Shown here one piece after another: positions 15,162 to 21,155 of a stretch of DNA of 64,000 nt. Source of the DNA: Anaerolineae bacterium (GTDB lineage: Bacteria; Chloroflexota; Anaerolineae; UBA1429); assembly GCA_050949345.1 (NCBI GenBank), contig JBMNFN010000001.1:620786-684785 (forward strand), given 5' to 3'. The first letter of the stretch is position 1. Each line of letters begins with the position of its first letter. The notes under the pieces are model-generated. The model had not been told where the DNA came from. It made no database searches and saw only the letters and a program-made list of their open reading frames with translations. A program made the position numbers and the translations under genes.

Positions 15162-16631
15162 CTAGGCCTGGTCTGCCACGCCACGGGCTCTTTCCGCCAG
15201 ATTCTGCCACTCGGTGTGACAGATACCTTCGCGATCGATGCGGCGATAGGTGTGCGCACCGAAATAGTCTCTCTGCGCTTGTGTGAGGTTTGCGGGCAGA
15301 AACTCGGTGCGATAGGCGTCCAGATAGCCCAGGGACGCACTCATGGCGAGACAGGGGATGCCCAGCTGAACCGCCACGCTCACTACGCGGCGCAGGGCAG
15401 CTTGACGGGTAAGGACGGCCTGCTTGAAATACGGATCGAGCAAGAGATTTTGGAGCGACGGGTTCCGCTCGTACGCGGCGCTGATGTCGTTGAGAAAACG
15501 CGCGCGGATGATGCAGCCGCCACGCCACAGCTTGGCTACGGTAGCCAGATTCAGATCATAGTCGTACTCGTCCGAGGCGCCACGGAGCAGCTCCATGCCC
15601 TGTGCATAGGAGCAGATCTTGGCGGCAAAGAGCGCCTGTCGCACGTCATCAATCAGAGCGTCTCGGTCCCCGTCATAGCTGGCTGCAGGCACCGCCAGCT
15701 CACGGCTGGCCACCACGCGCTCTGCTTTGAGCGCTGAGGTGATGCGCGACTCGACAGCGGCATTAATTGTCTGCAGCGGCATGCCAATATCCATGGCGTC
15801 CTGCGAGGTCCACTTGCCGGTGCCCTTTTGCTGCGCCTCGTCCAGCACCATATCCACCAGCGGGCGGCCGGTCTCCTCGTCGGTAACGTAAAAGATGTCG
15901 CGGGTGATCTCGATCAGGTACGACTCGAGCTCGGCCTCGTTCCAGCTGCCGAACACCTCGCCGAGCTCGCGGGCAGAAAGGTTGAGAGCGCGCCTCAGGA
16001 CGTCATAGGCCTCGGCGATCAGCTGCATGTCGCCGTATTCGATGCCGTTGTGCACCATTTTCACATAGTGTCCGGCTCCGCGGGGCCCGAGATGCGCGAC
16101 GCAGGGCTCGCCCTCGGCCACGGCAGCGATGGCCTCAAAGATGGGCGCCACCATGGCATAGGCCTCGGGCTGCCCGCCGGGCATGATGGCCGGACCATGC
16201 AAGGCGCCATACTCGCCACCGGACACACCGGTGCCGATAAAGTTGATGCCCCTGGCTGCCAGGGCAACGGCACGCCGTTCGGTGTCCCGATAGAACGAGT
16301 TGCCGCCGTCGATGATCACGTCCCCCTGATCCACCAGCGGGATCAGCTGCTCGATCACCGCATCCACCGCTGCACCCGCCTGCACCATGAGCATGATCTT
16401 GCGGGGGGACGAGAGCGACGCTACCAGCTCCTCCAGGGTGTCGCAGCCCTTGATCCTTTTTCCCGCGGCCTCTCCCGCCAGGAACGCGTGGGTGCGTTCG
16501 ACAGTTCGGTTGTATACCGCCACGGGAAACCCGTTGCGCTCCATGTTGAGCACCAAATTCTGGCCCATGACGGCCAGTCCCACCAACCCGATTGCGTACT
16601 CTCCCATACCAGCGGCTACCTTTCCGGCCAC
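15162..16631 (-). CDS. gnd: 6-phosphogluconate dehydrogenase (decarboxylating)
   Basis: GLAVMGQNL Rossmann motif, NGIEYGDMQLI, KGTGKWT and the full C-terminal domain. The alternative start MGEY at 16607 would remove the 16-nt overlap with the LarA-like gene. Confidence 0.9.
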   Translation of the reverse strand: MAGKVAAGMGEYAIGLVGLAVMGQNLVLNMERNGFPVAVYNRTVERTHAFLAGEAAGKRIKGCDTLEELVASLSSPRKIMLMVQAGAAVDAVIEQLIPLVDQGDVIIDGGNSFYRDTERRAVALAARGINFIGTGVSGGEYGALHGPAIMPGGQPEAYAMVAPIFEAIAAVAEGEPCVAHLGPRGAGHYVKMVHNGIEYGDMQLIAEAYDVLRRALNLSARELGEVFGSWNEAELESYLIEITRDIFYVTDEETGRPLVDMVLDEAQQKGTGKWTSQDAMDIGMPLQTINAAVESRITSALKAERVVASRELAVPAASYDGDRDALIDDVRQALFAAKICSYAQGMELLRGASDEYDYDLNLATVAKLWRGGCIIRARFLNDISAAYERNPSLQNLLLDPYFKQAVLTRQAALRRVVSVAVQLGIPCLAMSASLGYLDAYRTEFLPANLTQAQRDYFGAHTYRRIDREGICHTEWQNLAERARGVADQA

Positions 16632-17887
16632 TCGGCCTGTTCACTCTGCAGTCTGTGCAACAATTCCCCGGCCCGGGGAACCAATAGAATACCCTCGTCC
16701 TCCCGGTTCGCATACTGGGCCAAATCCATGCTGGCAGGATCCCGGTACCCCAGGTTGACCCGCTCGCAACGCTCCCGCGGCACACCGGTGGCCAGCACCA
16801 CCTCCACGCGGGGACGCTCCACGCCGCTCTCATAGGTGCCGGCGCCCTTGACCAGGGTGGCGTGGGTCATGACGCCTCGGGACTCGCCCGCAAAGCGATC
16901 CATGTGCGCCAGGTAATAATCGCGCACGTGGTAGCCGATGCGGTCGAGCGCCGCACCGTGGGTGTAGGATATCTCGTCGATATGCGGGGCATAGATGATC
17001 ACCGTGCCGCCATCGGCCACCACGGGCTCTACCTTGTACATGCCCTTGCTGGCCGTCCAGATGTCATCGTACAGATCGGGCATCACCGATACGACCGTAT
17101 GAAAGGGATGGGGCATCCAGCGGATGTTGACGCGGGCCGAGATCTCGGCGGCGGCGGCCTGCGCCAGCTCTGGCGTCCCCCAGAACAATCCCGCCAGATC
17201 ATGCTCGCCCACCACCGCCATGGCAAAGCAGGAGCGCTCCCTCGGGATGAGCGCGGCGGCGCGATTCAACAGCTCGCGCATGGGCGTATTCTGGCGCCCG
17301 ATGGTCCAACGGTTGGTGAGCAGCGCCCCGAGCCAATGGCTCAGATCGATCACCCCAGGACCGCTGATGCCGGGGAAAAAGTACTTGTTGCCCCCGGAAA
17401 AGCCCACCACCTCGTGCGGAAACACCGGTCCACAGATCAACAGGTGGTCATAGTCCAGGACCCGTCGGTTGATCTCAACCGGCAGCGCCTCGTGCAGCAG
17501 GCCGTTGCTGAGCGCGGCGATGTCCTCCGCAGGAATGGTGCCCAACAACGTCAGATCGTGAACATAGTCATGGTTATAGAGGCCCACCCGACCATAGGTG
17601 CTGGCGCGCTCCTCGAGGGTGATGCCCAAGTGTCGGCACAGGCGCTCCTCGTCCAGCGGGGCGTGGGTGCCCAGGGCGATGAGCACATCCAGCGCAGCCA
17701 CCTGTGGCAGGAGGGCATCGGCAAGCGTACGGAAACAGAGCGCCGTGGGGCCGCTGCGCGTGGTGTCAGGCAGAATGAGCAGCACGCGCCGATTGCGCAG
17801 GCCGGCCTGCTCCACGCCCTGCCTCAGGATACCCTGGGTCTCTTCCAGCGTAAGAAAGCGGTTGCTGAAACCTTTGCCCACCAGCAT
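16616..17887 (-). CDS. LarA-family (nickel-pincer-nucleotide dependent) 2-hydroxyacid racemase/epimerase homologue
   Basis: The N-terminal LarA_N (DUF2088) region has LILPDTTRSGP. The block FPHEVVGFSGGNKYFFPG matches the LarA GFSGGRK motif that carries the cofactor-bearing lysine. About 423 aa, the same as LarA. Confidence 0.7.
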   Translation of the reverse strand: MLVGKGFSNRFLTLEETQGILRQGVEQAGLRNRRVLLILPDTTRSGPTALCFRTLADALLPQVAALDVLIALGTHAPLDEERLCRHLGITLEERASTYGRVGLYNHDYVHDLTLLGTIPAEDIAALSNGLLHEALPVEINRRVLDYDHLLICGPVFPHEVVGFSGGNKYFFPGISGPGVIDLSHWLGALLTNRWTIGRQNTPMRELLNRAAALIPRERSCFAMAVVGEHDLAGLFWGTPELAQAAAAEISARVNIRWMPHPFHTVVSVMPDLYDDIWTASKGMYKVEPVVADGGTVIIYAPHIDEISYTHGAALDRIGYHVRDYYLAHMDRFAGESRGVMTHATLVKGAGTYESGVERPRVEVVLATGVPRERCERVNLGYRDPASMDLAQYANREDEGILLVPRAGELLHRLQSEQAEWPER

Positions 17888-17891
17888 GTTG

Positions 17892-19626: not shown

Positions 19627-19643
19627 GGTGCATCGACGCTCCT

Positions 19644-21155
19644 TCAGGCAAAGGGCTGAATGTGTCGCATAAAGTGGACTTCCAAGCCCCTGTAGTGCGC
19701 CTCTTCGTGGGCGTTGAGCAGGGAAAAAATACGCTCACTAAAGAGGGAGGGGTGTCCCTGGTCACCACTCAACACCACACCAAAGGCCACATGCAGCACC
19801 TGGCGCGCATCAAAATCGCTCAGCAGCGAGGGCAGGTCGCTGTCCGGCACGCTGGCGGGATCGGGAACACGCTTCAGCTCTGCTGAAACGTGATAGGAGC
19901 GACGCTCGTACTCGTATCGTTCCGCAGACAAAGCCAGGATCTCGCGAAAGAGAGCCGGCTCGGACTGGGCGACTACCCGCAGTGCCTCGAGATAGCTGGT
20001 GCCCGCCGTCTTCAGGTGAACCAGGTCGCCCGCGTGGCGTGCCGCAATGGGATAGATGGAAAACTTGTCCGAGCCCGAGTGCAGGCTGAGCTTGTAGGGT
20101 CCCAGCGCCCGGGCGATGGCCACGTGCCAGGCCCAGTCCTTCTCAAAAGTGCCCAGGTCGCCGATATAGTCCACGCCTTTTTCAAAGCGCCCCACATACC
20201 GCGGGGCCAGAGACACCCAGTCGACACCCAGCCTCTGCAACTCTCTGGCGATGAACCAGTGCTCCGCGGGACGGGTTGGGGTATCGGTTTCATCCACCGA
20301 TACCTCCACCTCCCAGGGGGCGCCGGCACGCACCCTGCGCAGATGCTCATACAGATCACGGATGTGCGCCAACGCCGCGCCATACTTGCAGGCGGCCCGC
20401 AAAAAGCCCAGCTCGTCCAGCGCGATCACCCGACGCCCGGAGAGCGCCCAGCTGTTGCCCACGTAGCGACGGTAGAGCTCGCCCGCTGTGACACCCAACT
20501 CCCCCCAGGGGAGCGCGGCGTACTTGTCCCGGAGCACCGGCAACGCATCGCTCTCGGCGTCGTTGTCCACCTGATCGCGAGGATCAAAGGTGTACATGAT
20601 ATAGCCGGCAGCGACGCAGCGATCGATATCCTCGGTGGTCTTGAGATGATCGGCGTCGGCCCCGTGCGGTGCACGCCAGCCCTCCTGCAACACACCAAAA
20701 GTGGCGTCATCCAGCACCTGCTCCGGCGTTCGACCGGTGCGCTCCATCTCACGTATGGACTGTTGGGCATACACGGGGACGATCCCCTGTACATGCCGCA
20801 TGGCACGAATGTGTCCGGGCGTTGCCAGACCCAGGCGATCGCCGAGCCCGGCGCTCTTGTGCACACCCACCAGCGAGGGAGCGGTAAAGGGAAGCAGCTG
20901 ACGCAGGCGGCAGGCGTTGGCGTGATCCAACGGCCCCAGGCCCAACCAGTGGGCCTCGTTCTGCCACAGACAGCGCTCCAGCACCACATTCAGGCCCAGC
21001 GGATCGCCGCTGCGACCGAGGACCGCCAGACGTCGGCCCTCCGGACGCCGCACGAGAAACAAGGTGTGTTCCCCTACCGCGTTCAGCGACTGCGGATAGA
21101 CCTCCCCACCCGCGATCGCTGCCAATTGTCGAGTCGTAGCGCTCTGTTCTGCCAT
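19644..21155 (-). CDS. UxaE-like putative tagaturonate/fructuronate epimerase (TIM-barrel sugar-acid epimerase family)
   Basis: About 500 aa with features I associate with the UxaE family (HLKTAGTSYLEAL, DPRDQVD); the family assignment is from memory rather than a search. Start placed at MAEQ, which has an AAGGGGTGA Shine-Dalgarno. Confidence 0.4.
   Translation of the reverse strand: MAEQSATTRQLAAIAGGEVYPQSLNAVGEHTLFLVRRPEGRRLAVLGRSGDPLGLNVVLERCLWQNEAHWLGLGPLDHANACRLRQLLPFTAPSLVGVHKSAGLGDRLGLATPGHIRAMRHVQGIVPVYAQQSIREMERTGRTPEQVLDDATFGVLQEGWRAPHGADADHLKTTEDIDRCVAAGYIMYTFDPRDQVDNDAESDALPVLRDKYAALPWGELGVTAGELYRRYVGNSWALSGRRVIALDELGFLRAACKYGAALAHIRDLYEHLRRVRAGAPWEVEVSVDETDTPTRPAEHWFIARELQRLGVDWVSLAPRYVGRFEKGVDYIGDLGTFEKDWAWHVAIARALGPYKLSLHSGSDKFSIYPIAARHAGDLVHLKTAGTSYLEALRVVAQSEPALFREILALSAERYEYERRSYHVSAELKRVPDPASVPDSDLPSLLSDFDARQVLHVAFGVVLSGDQGHPSLFSERIFSLLNAHEEAHYRGLEVHFMRHIQPFA

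What the first reader, a model, noticed from the sequence alone, without database searches (positions are those of the whole stretch)
15162..21155. Overlapping five-gene minus-strand operon pairs a LarA-family nickel-pincer enzyme with uronate/aldonate enzymes and gnd
Five genes run uxaE-like, SDR, HAD phosphatase, LarA-like, gnd with stop/start overlaps or gaps of 18 nt or less (SDR/HAD 14 nt, HAD/LarA 4 nt, LarA/gnd 16 nt), which implies one transcript with translational coupling. LarA is best known as the NPN-cofactor-dependent lactate racemase, but the LarA superfamily also contains racemases and 2-epimerases of other 2-hydroxyacids; as I recall the biochemical work on LarA homologues, this includes a gluconate 2-epimerase, which I could not check here. 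In this context (UxaE-like tagaturonate/fructuronate epimerase, an SDR that could be a fructuronate/mannonate oxidoreductase, three ManD-like dehydratases 3-10 kb away, and 6-phosphogluconate dehydrogenase as the last gene) the simplest reading is a mannonate/gluconate-type aldonate 2-epimerase. That would bridge a hexuronate route to the pentose-phosphate entry point (gnd), a wiring not described in textbook uronate pathways. The GFSGGNK block preserves the lysine that carries the NPN cofactor.
Basis: partly seen in the sequence, partly recalled or inferred. Interest (0 to 1): 0.78.

Follow-up and report, generated by a model that had tools for sequence, protein, structure and literature searches.

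The report
Known uronate-to-pentose operon, odd phosphatase
This five-gene operon from an uncultured Anaerolineae bacterium encodes a route already described in Thermotoga that turns plant-derived uronic acids into pentose-phosphate intermediates with a nickel-cofactor sugar-acid epimerase, but a conserved, uncharacterised phosphatase sits where the expected kinase should be.

Summary
Five co-directional minus-strand genes (uxaE, mannonate-oxidoreductase-type SDR, HAD hydrolase, LarA homologue, gnd) are joined by gaps or overlaps of at most 17 nt and end in a strong hairpin.

The LarA homologue keeps all catalytic and cofactor residues (H75, H158, K168, H184). It carries the gluconate-epimerase signature (PH-EV loop, Trp277). 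Its model matches T. maritima GntE2 (4NAR, TM 0.88). By sequence it belongs to published LarAH group 19 (47% to Trad_0660, 41.5% to characterised C. glutamicum GntE1). It is not a lactate racemase.

T. maritima gnd-uxaRED-gntEK was predicted in 2012, shown to be pectin-induced in 2013, and GntE1 and GntE2 were assayed in 2020.

What is not described is this variant. No gluconokinase lies in the operon or the 64-kb window. Instead an uncharacterised ~298-aa HAD family is embedded. Across phyla it co-travels with SDR, Gnd, a PPi-PFK-like gene and either group-19 or group-18 LarAH. It was never seen with the FGGY kinase of Thermotoga-type clusters. The phosphorylation step and the HAD's role are unresolved.

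The parts
19644..21155 (-). uxaE: tagaturonate/fructuronate epimerase. An alternative GTG start at 21215 adds 20 aa.
   Evidence: Pfam PF16257 UxaE at 495 bits over the full length. E = 5.5e-113 to the solved tagaturonate/fructuronate epimerase 9LHU and 6e-96 to Cohnella UxaE 6IL9.
18796..19626 (-). SDR of the D-mannonate oxidoreductase (fructuronate reductase, UxaD/UxuB-like) type.
   Evidence: NCBIfam NF006132 D-mannonate oxidoreductase at 317 bits, above the cut-off of 281. The next best models fall below their cut-offs. It lies within 6 kb of the LarAH, usually directly upstream, in 39 of 59 genome loci that have room.
17892..18809 (-). HAD-superfamily phosphohydrolase of an uncharacterised ~298-aa family with an enlarged helical C1 cap. 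Its substrate is unknown.
   Evidence: Weak Pfam HAD_2 hit (25.8 bits against 23.8) and no NCBIfam model. Invariant residues are D32-S-D34-G-C, S185, K216 and G237-D-A-x-G-D242, with many invariant Arg and Lys. The model has pLDDT 90. The nearest PDB folds are phosphoglycolate phosphatases, beta-PGM and mannitol-1-P phosphatase, at TM of only about 0.5-0.6. No PDB relative is found by sequence. In a scan anchored on the HAD, its downstream neighbour is LarAH in 25 of 45 loci and Gnd in 7 of 45. Its upstream neighbour is the SDR in 20 of 48.
16616..17887 (-). LarA homologue of published group 19 (the GntE1 group). It is a candidate nickel-pincer-nucleotide-dependent hexonate C2-epimerase for D-mannonate/D-gluconate or a close analogue.
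   Evidence: Residue equivalences to L. plantarum LarA: H75 = H108, H158 = H174, K168 = K184, H184 = H200, D41/R44 = D72/R75 and K281 = K298. E159-V160 replace F175-F176, and W277-T278 replace Y294-Q295. Identity is 47% to Trad_0660 and Plim_2304, 41.5% to GntE1, 32% to GntE2 and 27% to group 18. The model has pLDDT 91.7, with TM 0.88 to 4NAR and 0.67 to 5HUQ.
15162..16607 (-). gnd: NADP-dependent decarboxylating 6-phosphogluconate dehydrogenase. An alternative GTG start lies at 16631.
   Evidence: NCBIfam NF006765 at 703 bits (cut-off 413) and TIGR00873 at 700 bits. It lies next to LarAH in 24 of 59 genome loci, in varying gene order.
15110..15143 (.). Perfect 15-bp stem with a 4-nt loop between the convergent gnd and the thioredoxin-like membrane-protein gene. 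It is a probable bidirectional terminator without a U-tract.
   Evidence: Read from the sequence. Folding gives -47.7 kcal/mol for the 86-nt context, z = -4.7, with none of 200 shuffles as stable.
21156..21312 (.). Intergenic region between uxaE and a divergent DUF362 gene. It is the presumed promoter region of the operon.
   Evidence: It is the only non-coding gap longer than 20 nt upstream of the five genes. No consensus sigma-70 site and no inverted repeat was found there, so its role is inferred.
26411..27256 (+). LarC1-type nickel-pincer cofactor biosynthesis gene, about 5 kb from the operon. It is an accessory gene, not part of the transcript.
   Evidence: NCBIfam TIGR00299 nickel_LarC1 at 213 bits (cut-off 90) and PF01969 in the public gene call. 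It is syntenic in L007, L008 and L087. No LarB or LarE was seen in the window.

Best explanation
The operon encodes the central steps of the hexuronate-to-pentose-phosphate shunt first described in Thermotoga maritima.

Proposed steps:
1. UxaE converts tagaturonate (from galacturonate) to fructuronate.
2. The SDR reduces fructuronate to D-mannonate.
3. The LarA homologue inverts C2 to give D-gluconate. It would use a Lys168-tethered nickel-pincer nucleotide and the His75/His158 pair, oxidising the 2-hydroxyl transiently and returning the hydride to the other face.
4. Once phosphorylated, the product is decarboxylated by Gnd to ribulose 5-phosphate.

What is shown: gene identities, active-site residues, fold, and conservation of the cluster.

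What is inferred: the substrates, the direction of flux, and a single transcript.

What is open: the kinase step is not encoded in the operon or the window, so it must be supplied from elsewhere or in another way. The embedded HAD enzyme is most likely a phosphatase or phosphotransferase acting on a phosphorylated sugar acid of this pathway. Its substrate is unknown.
For: Family assignments:
- UxaE 495 bits, mannonate oxidoreductase 317 > 281 bits, Gnd 703 > 413 bits, Lar_N 66 bits.

LarAH:
- All catalytic and cofactor residues plus the GntE signature are present.
- It falls in group 19 with the characterised GntE1 (Dataset S2 of PMC7583248).
- The fold matches GntE2 at TM 0.88.

Literature:
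- GntE1 and GntE2 epimerise D-mannonate to D-gluconate in vitro. The role proposed for GntE2 is entry of mannonate into the pentose-phosphate pathway.
- The T. maritima operon aldH-pelB-gnd-uxaRED-gntEK is induced on pectin.

Context across 59 genome loci with room:
- SDR 39, Gnd 24, UxaE 11, glucuronate isomerase 11, LacI-type regulators and KdgK-like kinases.
- This points to catabolism of uronates.

Other:
- LarAH sequences from FGGY-kinase-linked and HAD/PFK-linked clusters share 98 positions conserved at 95% or more. No discriminating position separates them, so they look isofunctional.
- A LarC1 gene lies 5 kb away.
Against: - No gluconokinase (FGGY, PfkB or PFK family) occurs in the operon or anywhere in the 64-kb window. 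No glucuronate isomerase was found in the window either. The route as encoded therefore cannot reach the Gnd substrate.
- A phosphatase has no role in the Thermotoga scheme, yet it is a conserved, tightly coupled member here.
- GntE1, the closest characterised enzyme, has a Km of 120 mM for D-mannonate. Its authors doubted that mannonate is its native substrate.
- The window enzyme is only 41.5% identical to GntE1. It has Leu345 at a signature position where 98% of 83 genome homologues have His. Leu does occur in 38 of its 120 closest relatives.
- No expression or activity data exist for this organism.
Confidence: 0.68

Rival explanations
1. Phosphorylated route. Phosphorylation comes before epimerisation, and the LarA homologue is really a 6-phospho-D-mannonate 2-epimerase that feeds Gnd directly. 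This activity was demonstrated in Lactobacillus suebicus extracts, but its gene was never identified. The phosphate would be installed on mannonate or on fructuronate C1 by the PPi-PFK-like kinase that sits in the module in relatives. Alternatively the HAD enzyme would act as a phosphotransferase.
For: - L. suebicus converts mannonate to 6-phosphomannonate and then to 6-phosphogluconate. It shows no direct mannonate-to-gluconate conversion, and the genes are unidentified.
- Characterised GntEs have high Km values for free mannonate: 17, 120 and 9.4 mM.
- HAD-type clusters carry no conventional gluconokinase. They often carry a PFK-family gene that is 63-78% identical across phyla and placed in shuffled order among SDR, HAD, LarAH and Gnd.
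- HAD/PFK and the FGGY kinase never co-occur (0 of 39 against 5 of 42 loci with room; Fisher p about 0.03, not corrected for phylogeny).
- The same SDR-HAD-PFK-Gnd set also surrounds group-18 LarAHs.
- A PdxB-like dehydrogenase, whose family acts on a phospho-aldonate, sits beside LarAH in several phyla.
Against: - No residue distinguishes LarAHs of FGGY-type clusters from those of HAD/PFK-type clusters.
- GntE2 and GntE1 do turn over free mannonate.
- The PFK-like protein passes the PPi-PFK subfamily model (362 > 273 bits) and resembles the solved PPi-PFKs 3K2Q and 3HNO. It may simply be a pentose-phosphate or glycolytic enzyme.
- The window's genome has no PFK gene near the operon.
- Both a phosphotransferase role for the HAD and a uronate substrate for the PFK are speculation.
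Confidence: 0.17
2. Different acid-sugar substrate. The group-19 enzyme epimerises another hexonate, uronate or aldarate, as suggested for GntE1 (for example glucarate/mannarate). Its adjacency to gnd would then reflect a general sugar-acid and central-metabolism neighbourhood rather than a direct product-substrate link.
For: - The authors of the GntE1 study proposed this because of the 120 mM Km and differences in the signature logo.
- The window holds three enolase-superfamily acid-sugar dehydratases, a sulfatase and a glycoside hydrolase nearby.
- The signature position 345 varies among His, Leu and Gln within the clade.
Against: - The most constant partner is a mannonate-oxidoreductase-type SDR (39 of 59 loci). 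Gnd follows in 24 of 59, in several gene orders and phyla. That is hard to explain without a gluconate or 6-phosphogluconate link.
- UxaE and glucuronate isomerase co-occur.
- The dehydratases do not travel with the module outside the closest relatives.
Confidence: 0.1
3. Outward flux. The HAD enzyme dephosphorylates 6-phosphogluconate. The LarAH, SDR and UxaE then run from gluconate towards mannonate, fructuronate or tagaturonate, for example to feed a mannonate or gluconate dehydratase branch.
For: The operon encodes a phosphatase but no kinase, which fits this direction on gene content alone. Acid-sugar dehydratases lie nearby.
Against: - Gnd in the same operon would compete for 6-phosphogluconate.
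- The route wastes a phosphate bond.
- The co-occurring LacI regulators, glucuronate isomerase and KdgK-like kinases point to uronate catabolism.
- No precedent is known.
Confidence: 0.04
4. The protein is an ordinary lactate racemase that sits in a sugar-acid operon by chance.
For: Public annotations call it 'lactate racemase domain-containing protein' or 'nickel-dependent lactate racemase'.
Against: - NF033504 scores 58.8 bits against a cut-off of 460.
- The Phe-Phe loop and the Tyr-Gln pair of lactate racemases are replaced by Glu-Val and Trp-Thr.
- Identity to solved LarA structures is 14-17%, with TM 0.67 against 0.88 for GntE2.
Confidence: 0.01

Closest known systems
Thermotoga maritima gnd-uxaR-uxaE-uxaD-gntE-gntK operon (UxaR regulon). 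The pathway was proposed by Rodionova et al. 2012. Regulon data are in PMC3750489.
   Same: It has the same enzyme set: UxaE epimerase, SDR fructuronate reductase, LarA-family GntE and Gnd, all in one co-directional cluster. It follows the same logic of routing mannonate through gluconate into the pentose-phosphate pathway.
   Different: Thermotoga has an FGGY gluconokinase and a GntR regulator in the operon and no HAD gene. The window operon has a HAD hydrolase and no kinase or regulator. The LarAH belongs to group 19 rather than group 20 (32% identity to TM0442).
GntE1 / LarAH19 of Corynebacterium glutamicum (group 19; PMC7583248).
   Same: It is in the same published LarAH group. It shares the same signature residues (D, R, H, H, E, V, K, H, W, T, K). 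It is an NPN-dependent D-mannonate/D-gluconate 2-epimerase in vitro.
   Different: Identity is only 41.5%. GntE1 has a Km of 120 mM and its native substrate is doubted. The published group-19 context lists LarB, LarE, LacI and UxaC, not Gnd, HAD or PFK. The window enzyme has Thr341 and Leu345 where most of its homologues have Ala and His; group 19 also has His at the second.
GntE2 / TM0442 (PDB 4NAR).
   Same: It is the best structural match (TM 0.88, rmsd 2.6 A). It has the same loop and Trp signature and a proven gluconate 2-epimerase activity.
   Different: Identity is 32%. It is a group-20, hyperthermophile enzyme, and it sits next to an FGGY kinase.
Lactobacillus suebicus galacturonate pathway: mannonate kinase plus 6-phosphomannonate 2-epimerase (PMC6978723).
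   Same: It has the same upper pathway (UxaE, fructuronate reductase) and the same end point (6-phosphogluconate, then Gnd). The route is redox-neutral.
   Different: The epimerisation takes place on the phosphorylated acid. The genes for both new steps are unidentified, so homology cannot be tested.
Lactate racemase LarA of Lactiplantibacillus plantarum (PDB 5HUQ).
   Same: It shares the fold, the cofactor-tethering Lys, the Ni-binding His and the catalytic His pair. The proton-coupled hydride-transfer mechanism is presumably the same.
   Different: The substrate pocket differs (Glu-Val for Phe-Phe, Trp-Thr for Tyr-Gln). Identity is 14-16%. The window protein fails the lactate-racemase model cut-off.

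Membership tests
LarA superfamily (NPN-dependent 2-hydroxyacid racemases and epimerases) | Lar_N domain and the overall two-domain LarA fold. | tested here: met
   PF09861 at 66.1 bits (cut-off 23.3). The model has pLDDT 91.7, with TM 0.88 to 4NAR, 0.75 to 9EIA and 0.67 to 5HUQ.
LarA superfamily (NPN-dependent 2-hydroxyacid racemases and epimerases) | Catalytic His pair (LarA H108 and H174). | tested here: met
   H75 and H158 align with H108 and H174 of L. plantarum LarA (8EZF alignment). Both are invariant in 28 homologues.
LarA superfamily (NPN-dependent 2-hydroxyacid racemases and epimerases) | Cofactor-tethering Lys184, Ni-ligand His200, and D72/R75/K298. | tested here: met
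   K168 (in GFSGGNK), H184, D41, R44 and K281 align with them. All are invariant in the family.
LarA superfamily (NPN-dependent 2-hydroxyacid racemases and epimerases) | NPN biosynthesis genes larB, larC and larE in the genome. | tested here: inconclusive
   A LarC1-type gene lies at 26411-27256 (213 bits against a cut-off of 90). It is only 281 aa. No LarB or LarE was found in the 64-kb window. The rest of the genome could not be read.
LarA superfamily (NPN-dependent 2-hydroxyacid racemases and epimerases) | Bound nickel-pincer nucleotide and stereo-inversion activity. | not testable with these tools
   This needs purified protein and cofactor.
GntE-type hexonate 2-epimerases (LarAH groups 18-20 of PMC7583248) | Loop Glu-Val/Ser after the second catalytic His, and Trp on helix alpha-11 in place of Tyr294. 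| tested here: met
   H158-E159-V160 and W277-T278. The signature is defined in PMC7583248, section 8.
GntE-type hexonate 2-epimerases (LarAH groups 18-20 of PMC7583248) | Ala or Val at the alpha-14 signature position. | tested here: inconclusive
   The equivalent stretch is G338-V-M-T341-H-A-T-L345-V-K347. The family consensus has Ala341 (98%), but the window enzyme has Thr341. The mapping to alpha-14 was made by hand from Dataset S2.
LarAH group 19 (GntE1 group) | Closest sequence relatives are group-19 members. | tested here: met
   47% to Trad_0660 and Plim_2304, 44% to MODMU_3050, 41.5% to GntE1. By contrast, 32% to group 20 and 26-28% to group 18. All 83 genome homologues also hit group 19 best.
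LarAH group 18 (NCBIfam NF052594, putative hexonate epimerase) | Score above the curated cut-off. | tested here: not met
   177 bits against a cut-off of 500. Identity to ACP_2683 is 27%.
Lactate racemase (NCBIfam NF033504) | Score above the curated cut-off, the Phe175-Phe176 loop and Tyr294-Gln295. | tested here: not met
   58.8 bits against a cut-off of 460. Glu-Val and Trp-Thr stand at those positions.
Thermotoga-type hexuronate-to-pentose-phosphate pathway | UxaE, SDR fructuronate reductase, GntE and Gnd encoded together. | tested here: met
   The literature description of the T. maritima operon is.
Thermotoga-type hexuronate-to-pentose-phosphate pathway | A gluconokinase (GntK) that makes 6-phosphogluconate. 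| tested here: not met
   No FGGY, PfkB or PFK homologue was found by tblastn in the window, and no such Pfam or NCBIfam hit among its genes. A P-loop GntK elsewhere in the genome cannot be excluded.
Thermotoga-type hexuronate-to-pentose-phosphate pathway | A uronate isomerase (UxaC) that supplies tagaturonate or fructuronate. | tested here: not met
   UxaC is absent from the window. It is present within about 6 kb of the LarAH in 11 of 59 related loci.
HAD-superfamily phosphatases | Motif I DxDx(T/V/G), motif II Ser/Thr, motif III Lys and motif IV GDxxxD. | tested here: met
   D32-S-D34-G-C, S185, K216 and G237-D238-A-x-G-D242 are invariant in 26 homologues. Pfam HAD_2 scores 25.8 bits against 23.8.
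HAD-superfamily phosphatases | Membership of a characterised subfamily with a known substrate. | tested here: not met
   There is no NCBIfam hit and no PDB hit by sequence. The best folds are generic subfamily-IA phosphatases at TM 0.45-0.50 on the query.

The most novel reading that the evidence does not exclude
The SDR-HAD-LarAH-Gnd module, which in relatives also carries a PPi-PFK-like gene, may be a distinct, widespread, kinase-independent or pyrophosphate-driven version of the uronate shunt.

In this reading, the phosphate of 6-phosphogluconate is installed without a gluconokinase. Two ways are conceivable:
- A PFK-family enzyme phosphorylates fructuronate C1. The SDR and the LarAH then work on the phosphorylated acids, which would make group-18 and group-19 LarAH the missing 6-phosphomannonate 2-epimerase of L. 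suebicus.
- The HAD enzyme acts as a phosphotransferase. From my own knowledge, a precedent is ThrH, a HAD phosphoserine:homoserine phosphotransferase that can replace homoserine kinase.
Probability: 0.15. Interest if true: 0.65.

Novelty: new variant of a known kind. Interest (0 to 1): 0.4.

Why it matters
As read by the first stage, this is a new member of a pathway already in the literature. It also shows that public annotation as 'lactate racemase' is wrong for a very large clade, with relatives in at least 597 representative species genomes.

The useful residue is a specific, testable gap. A cluster design found in Chloroflexota, Acidobacteriota, Planctomycetota, Nitrospirota, Hydrogenedentota and others pairs a hexonate epimerase and Gnd with an uncharacterised phosphatase family, and often with a PFK-like gene, instead of a gluconokinase.

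Resolving it would do three things:
- Assign a function to a conserved orphan HAD family.
- Settle the doubted native substrate of group-19 and group-18 LarA homologues.
- Possibly identify the genes for the 6-phosphomannonate route, which has been sought for redox-neutral galacturonate fermentation.

Tried and rejected
1. A second, unrelated phosphatase beside LarAH in Planctomycetota looked at first like independent support for a phosphatase step. It scores as a near-cut-off histidinol-phosphatase HisN (271 against 275 bits). It occurs only in one lineage whose LarAHs are 71% identical to each other. I treat it as lineage synteny.

2. I searched for residues that separate LarAHs of FGGY-kinase clusters from those of HAD/PFK clusters, which would have pointed to phosphorylated against free substrates. 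None was found, and within-group identity equals between-group identity at about 55%.

3. I tested whether the PFK-family gene is an atypical kinase. It passes the PPi-PFK subfamily model and resembles 3K2Q and 3HNO. It has GGNDS and PKTIDND motifs. My alignment to E. coli PfkA was too poor in the C-terminal half to judge the 6-phosphate-binding arginines.

4. Promoter and terminator consensus scans and an inverted-repeat search of the upstream region gave nothing above chance.

5. The three nearby dehydratases are not ManD by the curated model and do not travel with the module.

6. Rodionova 2012 (PMC4505799) is not held. Its content is cited second-hand.

7. The afdb50 fold library was unavailable for the HAD model.

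It was rerun without that sequence.

9. I could not read the rest of the genome, so I could not ask whether a gntK, larB or larE lies elsewhere.

Full report
**Observation.**
The region holds five co-directional minus-strand ORFs.
- Read from the sequence, uxaE (19644-21155) is followed after 17 nt, including an AGGAG, by an SDR gene (18796-19626).
- A HAD gene (17892-18809) overlaps the SDR stop by 14 nt if it starts at ATG 18809. This is the NCBI call, and its N-terminal length agrees with homologues.
- The LarA homologue (16616-17887) starts 4 nt after the HAD stop, behind GGAGAGG.
- gnd starts 8 nt after the LarAH stop at ATG 16607, the start used by both public annotations.
- A perfect 15-bp hairpin follows gnd at 15110-15143 (z = -4.7).
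- Consensus promoter and terminator hits inside the cluster do not exceed shuffles.
- One transcript is therefore plausible but unproven.
- The source is an uncultured Anaerolineae bacterium: GCA_012728955.1, and a JGI contig of sample 3300060823.

**Gene identities.**
- UxaE matches PF16257 end to end (495 bits) and solved tagaturonate/fructuronate epimerases (E = 5.5e-113).
- The SDR passes the NCBIfam D-mannonate oxidoreductase model (317 > 281 bits). Gluconate 5-dehydrogenase, glucose dehydrogenase and KduD models all fall below their cut-offs.
- Gnd is a standard NADP-dependent 6-phosphogluconate dehydrogenase (703 > 413 bits).
- The HAD protein has all four HAD motifs (D32-S-D34, S185, K216, GDAxGD242). 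It belongs to a tightly conserved ~298-aa family with 71% mean column identity and many invariant Arg and Lys.
- That family has no NCBIfam model and no PDB relative by sequence.
- Its fold matches only generic subfamily-IA phosphatases, at TM 0.45-0.50.

**The LarA homologue.**
- Aligned to L. plantarum LarA, it keeps H108, H174, K184, H200, D72, R75 and K298 as H75, H158, K168, H184, D41, R44 and K281.
- It replaces Phe175-Phe176 by Glu-Val and Tyr294-Gln295 by Trp-Thr.
- That loop and Trp pattern is the published signature of LarAH groups 18-20, the gluconate/hexonate epimerases (PMC7583248).
- Using sequences from that paper's Dataset S2, the protein is 47% identical to the group-19 members Trad_0660 and Plim_2304.
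- It is 41.5% identical to the characterised GntE1 of C. glutamicum, 32% to GntE2 (TM0442) and 26-28% to group 18.
- The NCBIfam best hit to the group-18 model (177 bits against 500) therefore looks like the nearest model that scored, since no group-19 or group-20 model appeared among the hits.
- An AlphaFold model (pLDDT 91.7) superposes on GntE2 (4NAR) at TM 0.88 and on LarA at 0.67.
- The lactate-racemase model scores 58.8 bits against 460.

**What is already known.**
- The T. maritima LarA homologue was postulated to be a gluconate 2-epimerase from gene context. GntE1 and GntE2 were then shown to epimerise D-mannonate to D-gluconate with NPN. GntE2's proposed role is to let mannonate enter the pentose-phosphate pathway.
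- The T. maritima operon aldH-pelB-gnd-uxaRED-gntEK is UxaR-regulated and induced on pectin.
- Other authors discuss the same proposal and describe a variant in L. suebicus in which mannonate is phosphorylated first and 6-phosphomannonate is epimerised. The genes for those steps are unidentified.
- A eukaryotic GntE has since been added.
- The 'wiring not described in textbooks' is thus in the primary literature, and the window operon carries four of its five enzymes.

**What differs: two cluster designs.**
There is no kinase in the operon and no FGGY, PfkB or PFK homologue anywhere in the 64-kb window. UxaC is absent too.

To see whether the HAD gene is incidental, I scanned one genome per species with a LarAH alignment. 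At least 597 relatives were found and 80 loci were kept, from many phyla. I annotated the loci by tblastn and ORF clustering. Two designs emerge.
- Thermotoga-like clusters carry UxaC, LacI, UxaE, SDR, LarAH and an FGGY gluconokinase-like gene. Eight loci are of this kind.
- A second design carries SDR, HAD, LarAH, Gnd and a PFK-family gene in shuffled orders (for example L027, L040, L051, L083). Some also have a PdxB-like 2-hydroxyacid dehydrogenase.

Among the 59 loci with at least 3 kb on both sides, the counts are:

| Neighbour | Loci (of 59) |
|---|---|
| SDR | 39 |
| Gnd | 24 |
| PFK | 13 |
| HAD | 12 |
| UxaE | 11 |
| UxaC | 11 |
| FGGY | 5 |

There is no HAD+FGGY or PFK+FGGY locus.

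**What differs: tests on the HAD gene.**
- A reciprocal scan anchored on the HAD in metagenome contigs gave LarAH as its downstream neighbour in 25 of 45 loci and Gnd in 7 of 45. The SDR was its upstream neighbour in 20 of 48. No FGGY gene was found in any of the 80 loci.
- Pooling loci with room gives 0 of 39 against 5 of 42 with FGGY. My calculation gives Fisher p of about 0.03, not corrected for phylogeny.
- In several HAD loci the epimerase is a group-18 LarAH (52-56% identical to ACP_2683) inside the same SDR-HAD-PFK-Gnd set.
- The module therefore stays constant while the LarAH group varies.
- The HAD is a real, recurrent member of a hexonate-epimerase/Gnd module. This association is not in the published context tables. 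Group 19 there lists LarB, LarE, LacI and UxaC. Group 18 lists SDR, Gnd and a ribokinase-family kinase.

**Interpretation.**
- The best-supported reading (about 0.68) is the known shunt: tagaturonate to fructuronate (UxaE), to mannonate (SDR), to gluconate (LarAH), and, after phosphorylation, to ribulose 5-phosphate (Gnd).
- LarAHs from FGGY-type and HAD-type clusters are indistinguishable at conserved positions (98 positions at 95% or more, no discriminating site). The enzyme probably does the same job in both.
- The open points are who phosphorylates, and what the phosphatase is for.
- The PFK-like protein of relatives scores as a PPi-PFK (362 > 273 bits) and resembles 3K2Q and 3HNO. It may simply belong with Gnd to pentose-phosphate metabolism.
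- Alternatively it could phosphorylate fructuronate C1, a carboxylate analogue of fructose 6-phosphate. That would place the SDR and the LarAH on phospho-acids, as in L. suebicus. This is my inference, with no direct evidence.
- The high Km values of characterised GntEs for free mannonate (17, 120 and 9.4 mM), and the published doubt about GntE1's native substrate, leave room for that. I put it at about 0.17.
- A different acid substrate (about 0.1), outward flux from 6-phosphogluconate (about 0.04) and lactate racemisation (about 0.01) are less likely, for the reasons listed under the rival explanations.

**Surroundings.**
- A LarC1-type cofactor gene lies 5 kb away and is syntenic in close relatives.
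- The divergent DUF362 gene, the sulfatase and the three enolase-superfamily dehydratases accompany the operon only in the nearest relatives.
- The dehydratases are not ManD by the curated model.

**Verdict.**
The functional call is essentially right, but it is a new member of a known enzyme group within a known pathway. What lifts it above ordinary is the conserved HAD-for-kinase substitution, a widespread and undescribed variant with a concrete biochemical question attached. I rate it 'new variant of a known kind', interest 0.4.

Noticed in passing
L003:10853-12139; also L004, L008, L027, L043, L050, L070, L080, L083 and others: A ~428-aa PFK-family gene recurs inside the SDR-HAD-LarAH-Gnd module in several phyla, in shuffled positions. 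It fits PPi-PFK subfamily PRK14072, has GGNDS instead of GGDGS/GGDDS, and has PKTIDND. Copies are 63-78% identical across phyla, more conserved than the LarAH itself (about 50%). It is absent from the window.
   Followed up: partly
L050:8829-9974, L027:8513-9676, L043:7794-8978, L070:8421-9563, L080:8823-9974: A PdxB-like (4-phosphoerythronate dehydrogenase model, 439 > 434 bits) D-2-hydroxyacid dehydrogenase sits between HAD and LarAH in Hydrogenedentota, Nitrospirota, Elusimicrobia and other loci. This family acts on a phosphorylated aldonic acid.
   Followed up: partly
L098, L124, L148, L150: The same HAD-Gnd-PFK(-SDR) set surrounds a group-18 LarAH ('putative hexonate epimerase', uncharacterised) instead of a group-19 one. 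This suggests that groups 18 and 19 fill the same step.
   Followed up: partly
window 16853-16855 (LarAH residue 345) and residue 341: The window LarAH has Leu345 and Thr341 where 98% of 83 genome homologues have His and Ala. Residue 345 maps to LarA A360, a substrate-signature position. Leu occurs in 38 of the 120 closest relatives, so it is a sub-clade trait. It does not correlate with presence of the HAD.
   Followed up: partly
window 26411-27256: The LarC gene is only 281 aa and matches the LarC1 model alone. It overlaps the stop of the upstream M42 peptidase gene by 4 nt. No LarC2 part, LarB or LarE is visible in the window.
   Followed up: no
window 21313-22539 and 57367-58473: There are two DUF362 proteins. 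The first is divergent from uxaE and is followed by a sulfatase (22562-24034). This pair accompanies the operon only in the closest relative (L007).
   Followed up: no
window 30575-31768 and 31782-32969: A tandem pair of enolase-superfamily acid-sugar dehydratases, 57% identical to each other, lies next to a GHL6-family glycoside hydrolase (28351-30558). Both fall below the galactonate dehydratase and ManD cut-offs, so their substrate is unknown.
   Followed up: partly
L022, L023, L044, L045, L052, L059, L071, L081, L084: In Planctomycetota the group-19 LarAH is followed directly by a HisN-like IMPase-family phosphatase (271 bits against a cut-off of 275), with no SDR, Gnd or HAD nearby. It is probably lineage synteny, but it is a second phosphatase next to this enzyme.
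   Followed up: partly
L006:6872-8891; L114, L116, L129, L166: In some contigs the HAD family is adjacent to a PfkB/KdgK-like sugar kinase rather than to LarAH.
   Followed up: no
window 12506-13423 and 13555-15087: A class II ketose-bisphosphate aldolase and a ~510-aa thioredoxin/glutaredoxin-like membrane protein lie just downstream, convergent with the operon. They are syntenic with it in Anaerolineae relatives (L003, L007, L008, L087).
   Followed up: no
window 33050-38612: A Pst-type phosphate ABC transporter with PhoU and an HD-domain protein is followed by two PAS histidine kinases (38759-43966). These are unrelated to the finding.
   Followed up: no
window 44462-46240: A 592-aa protein matches only the phosphoglucose-isomerase half of the bifunctional transaldolase/PGI model (657 bits against a cut-off of 712).
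   Followed up: no
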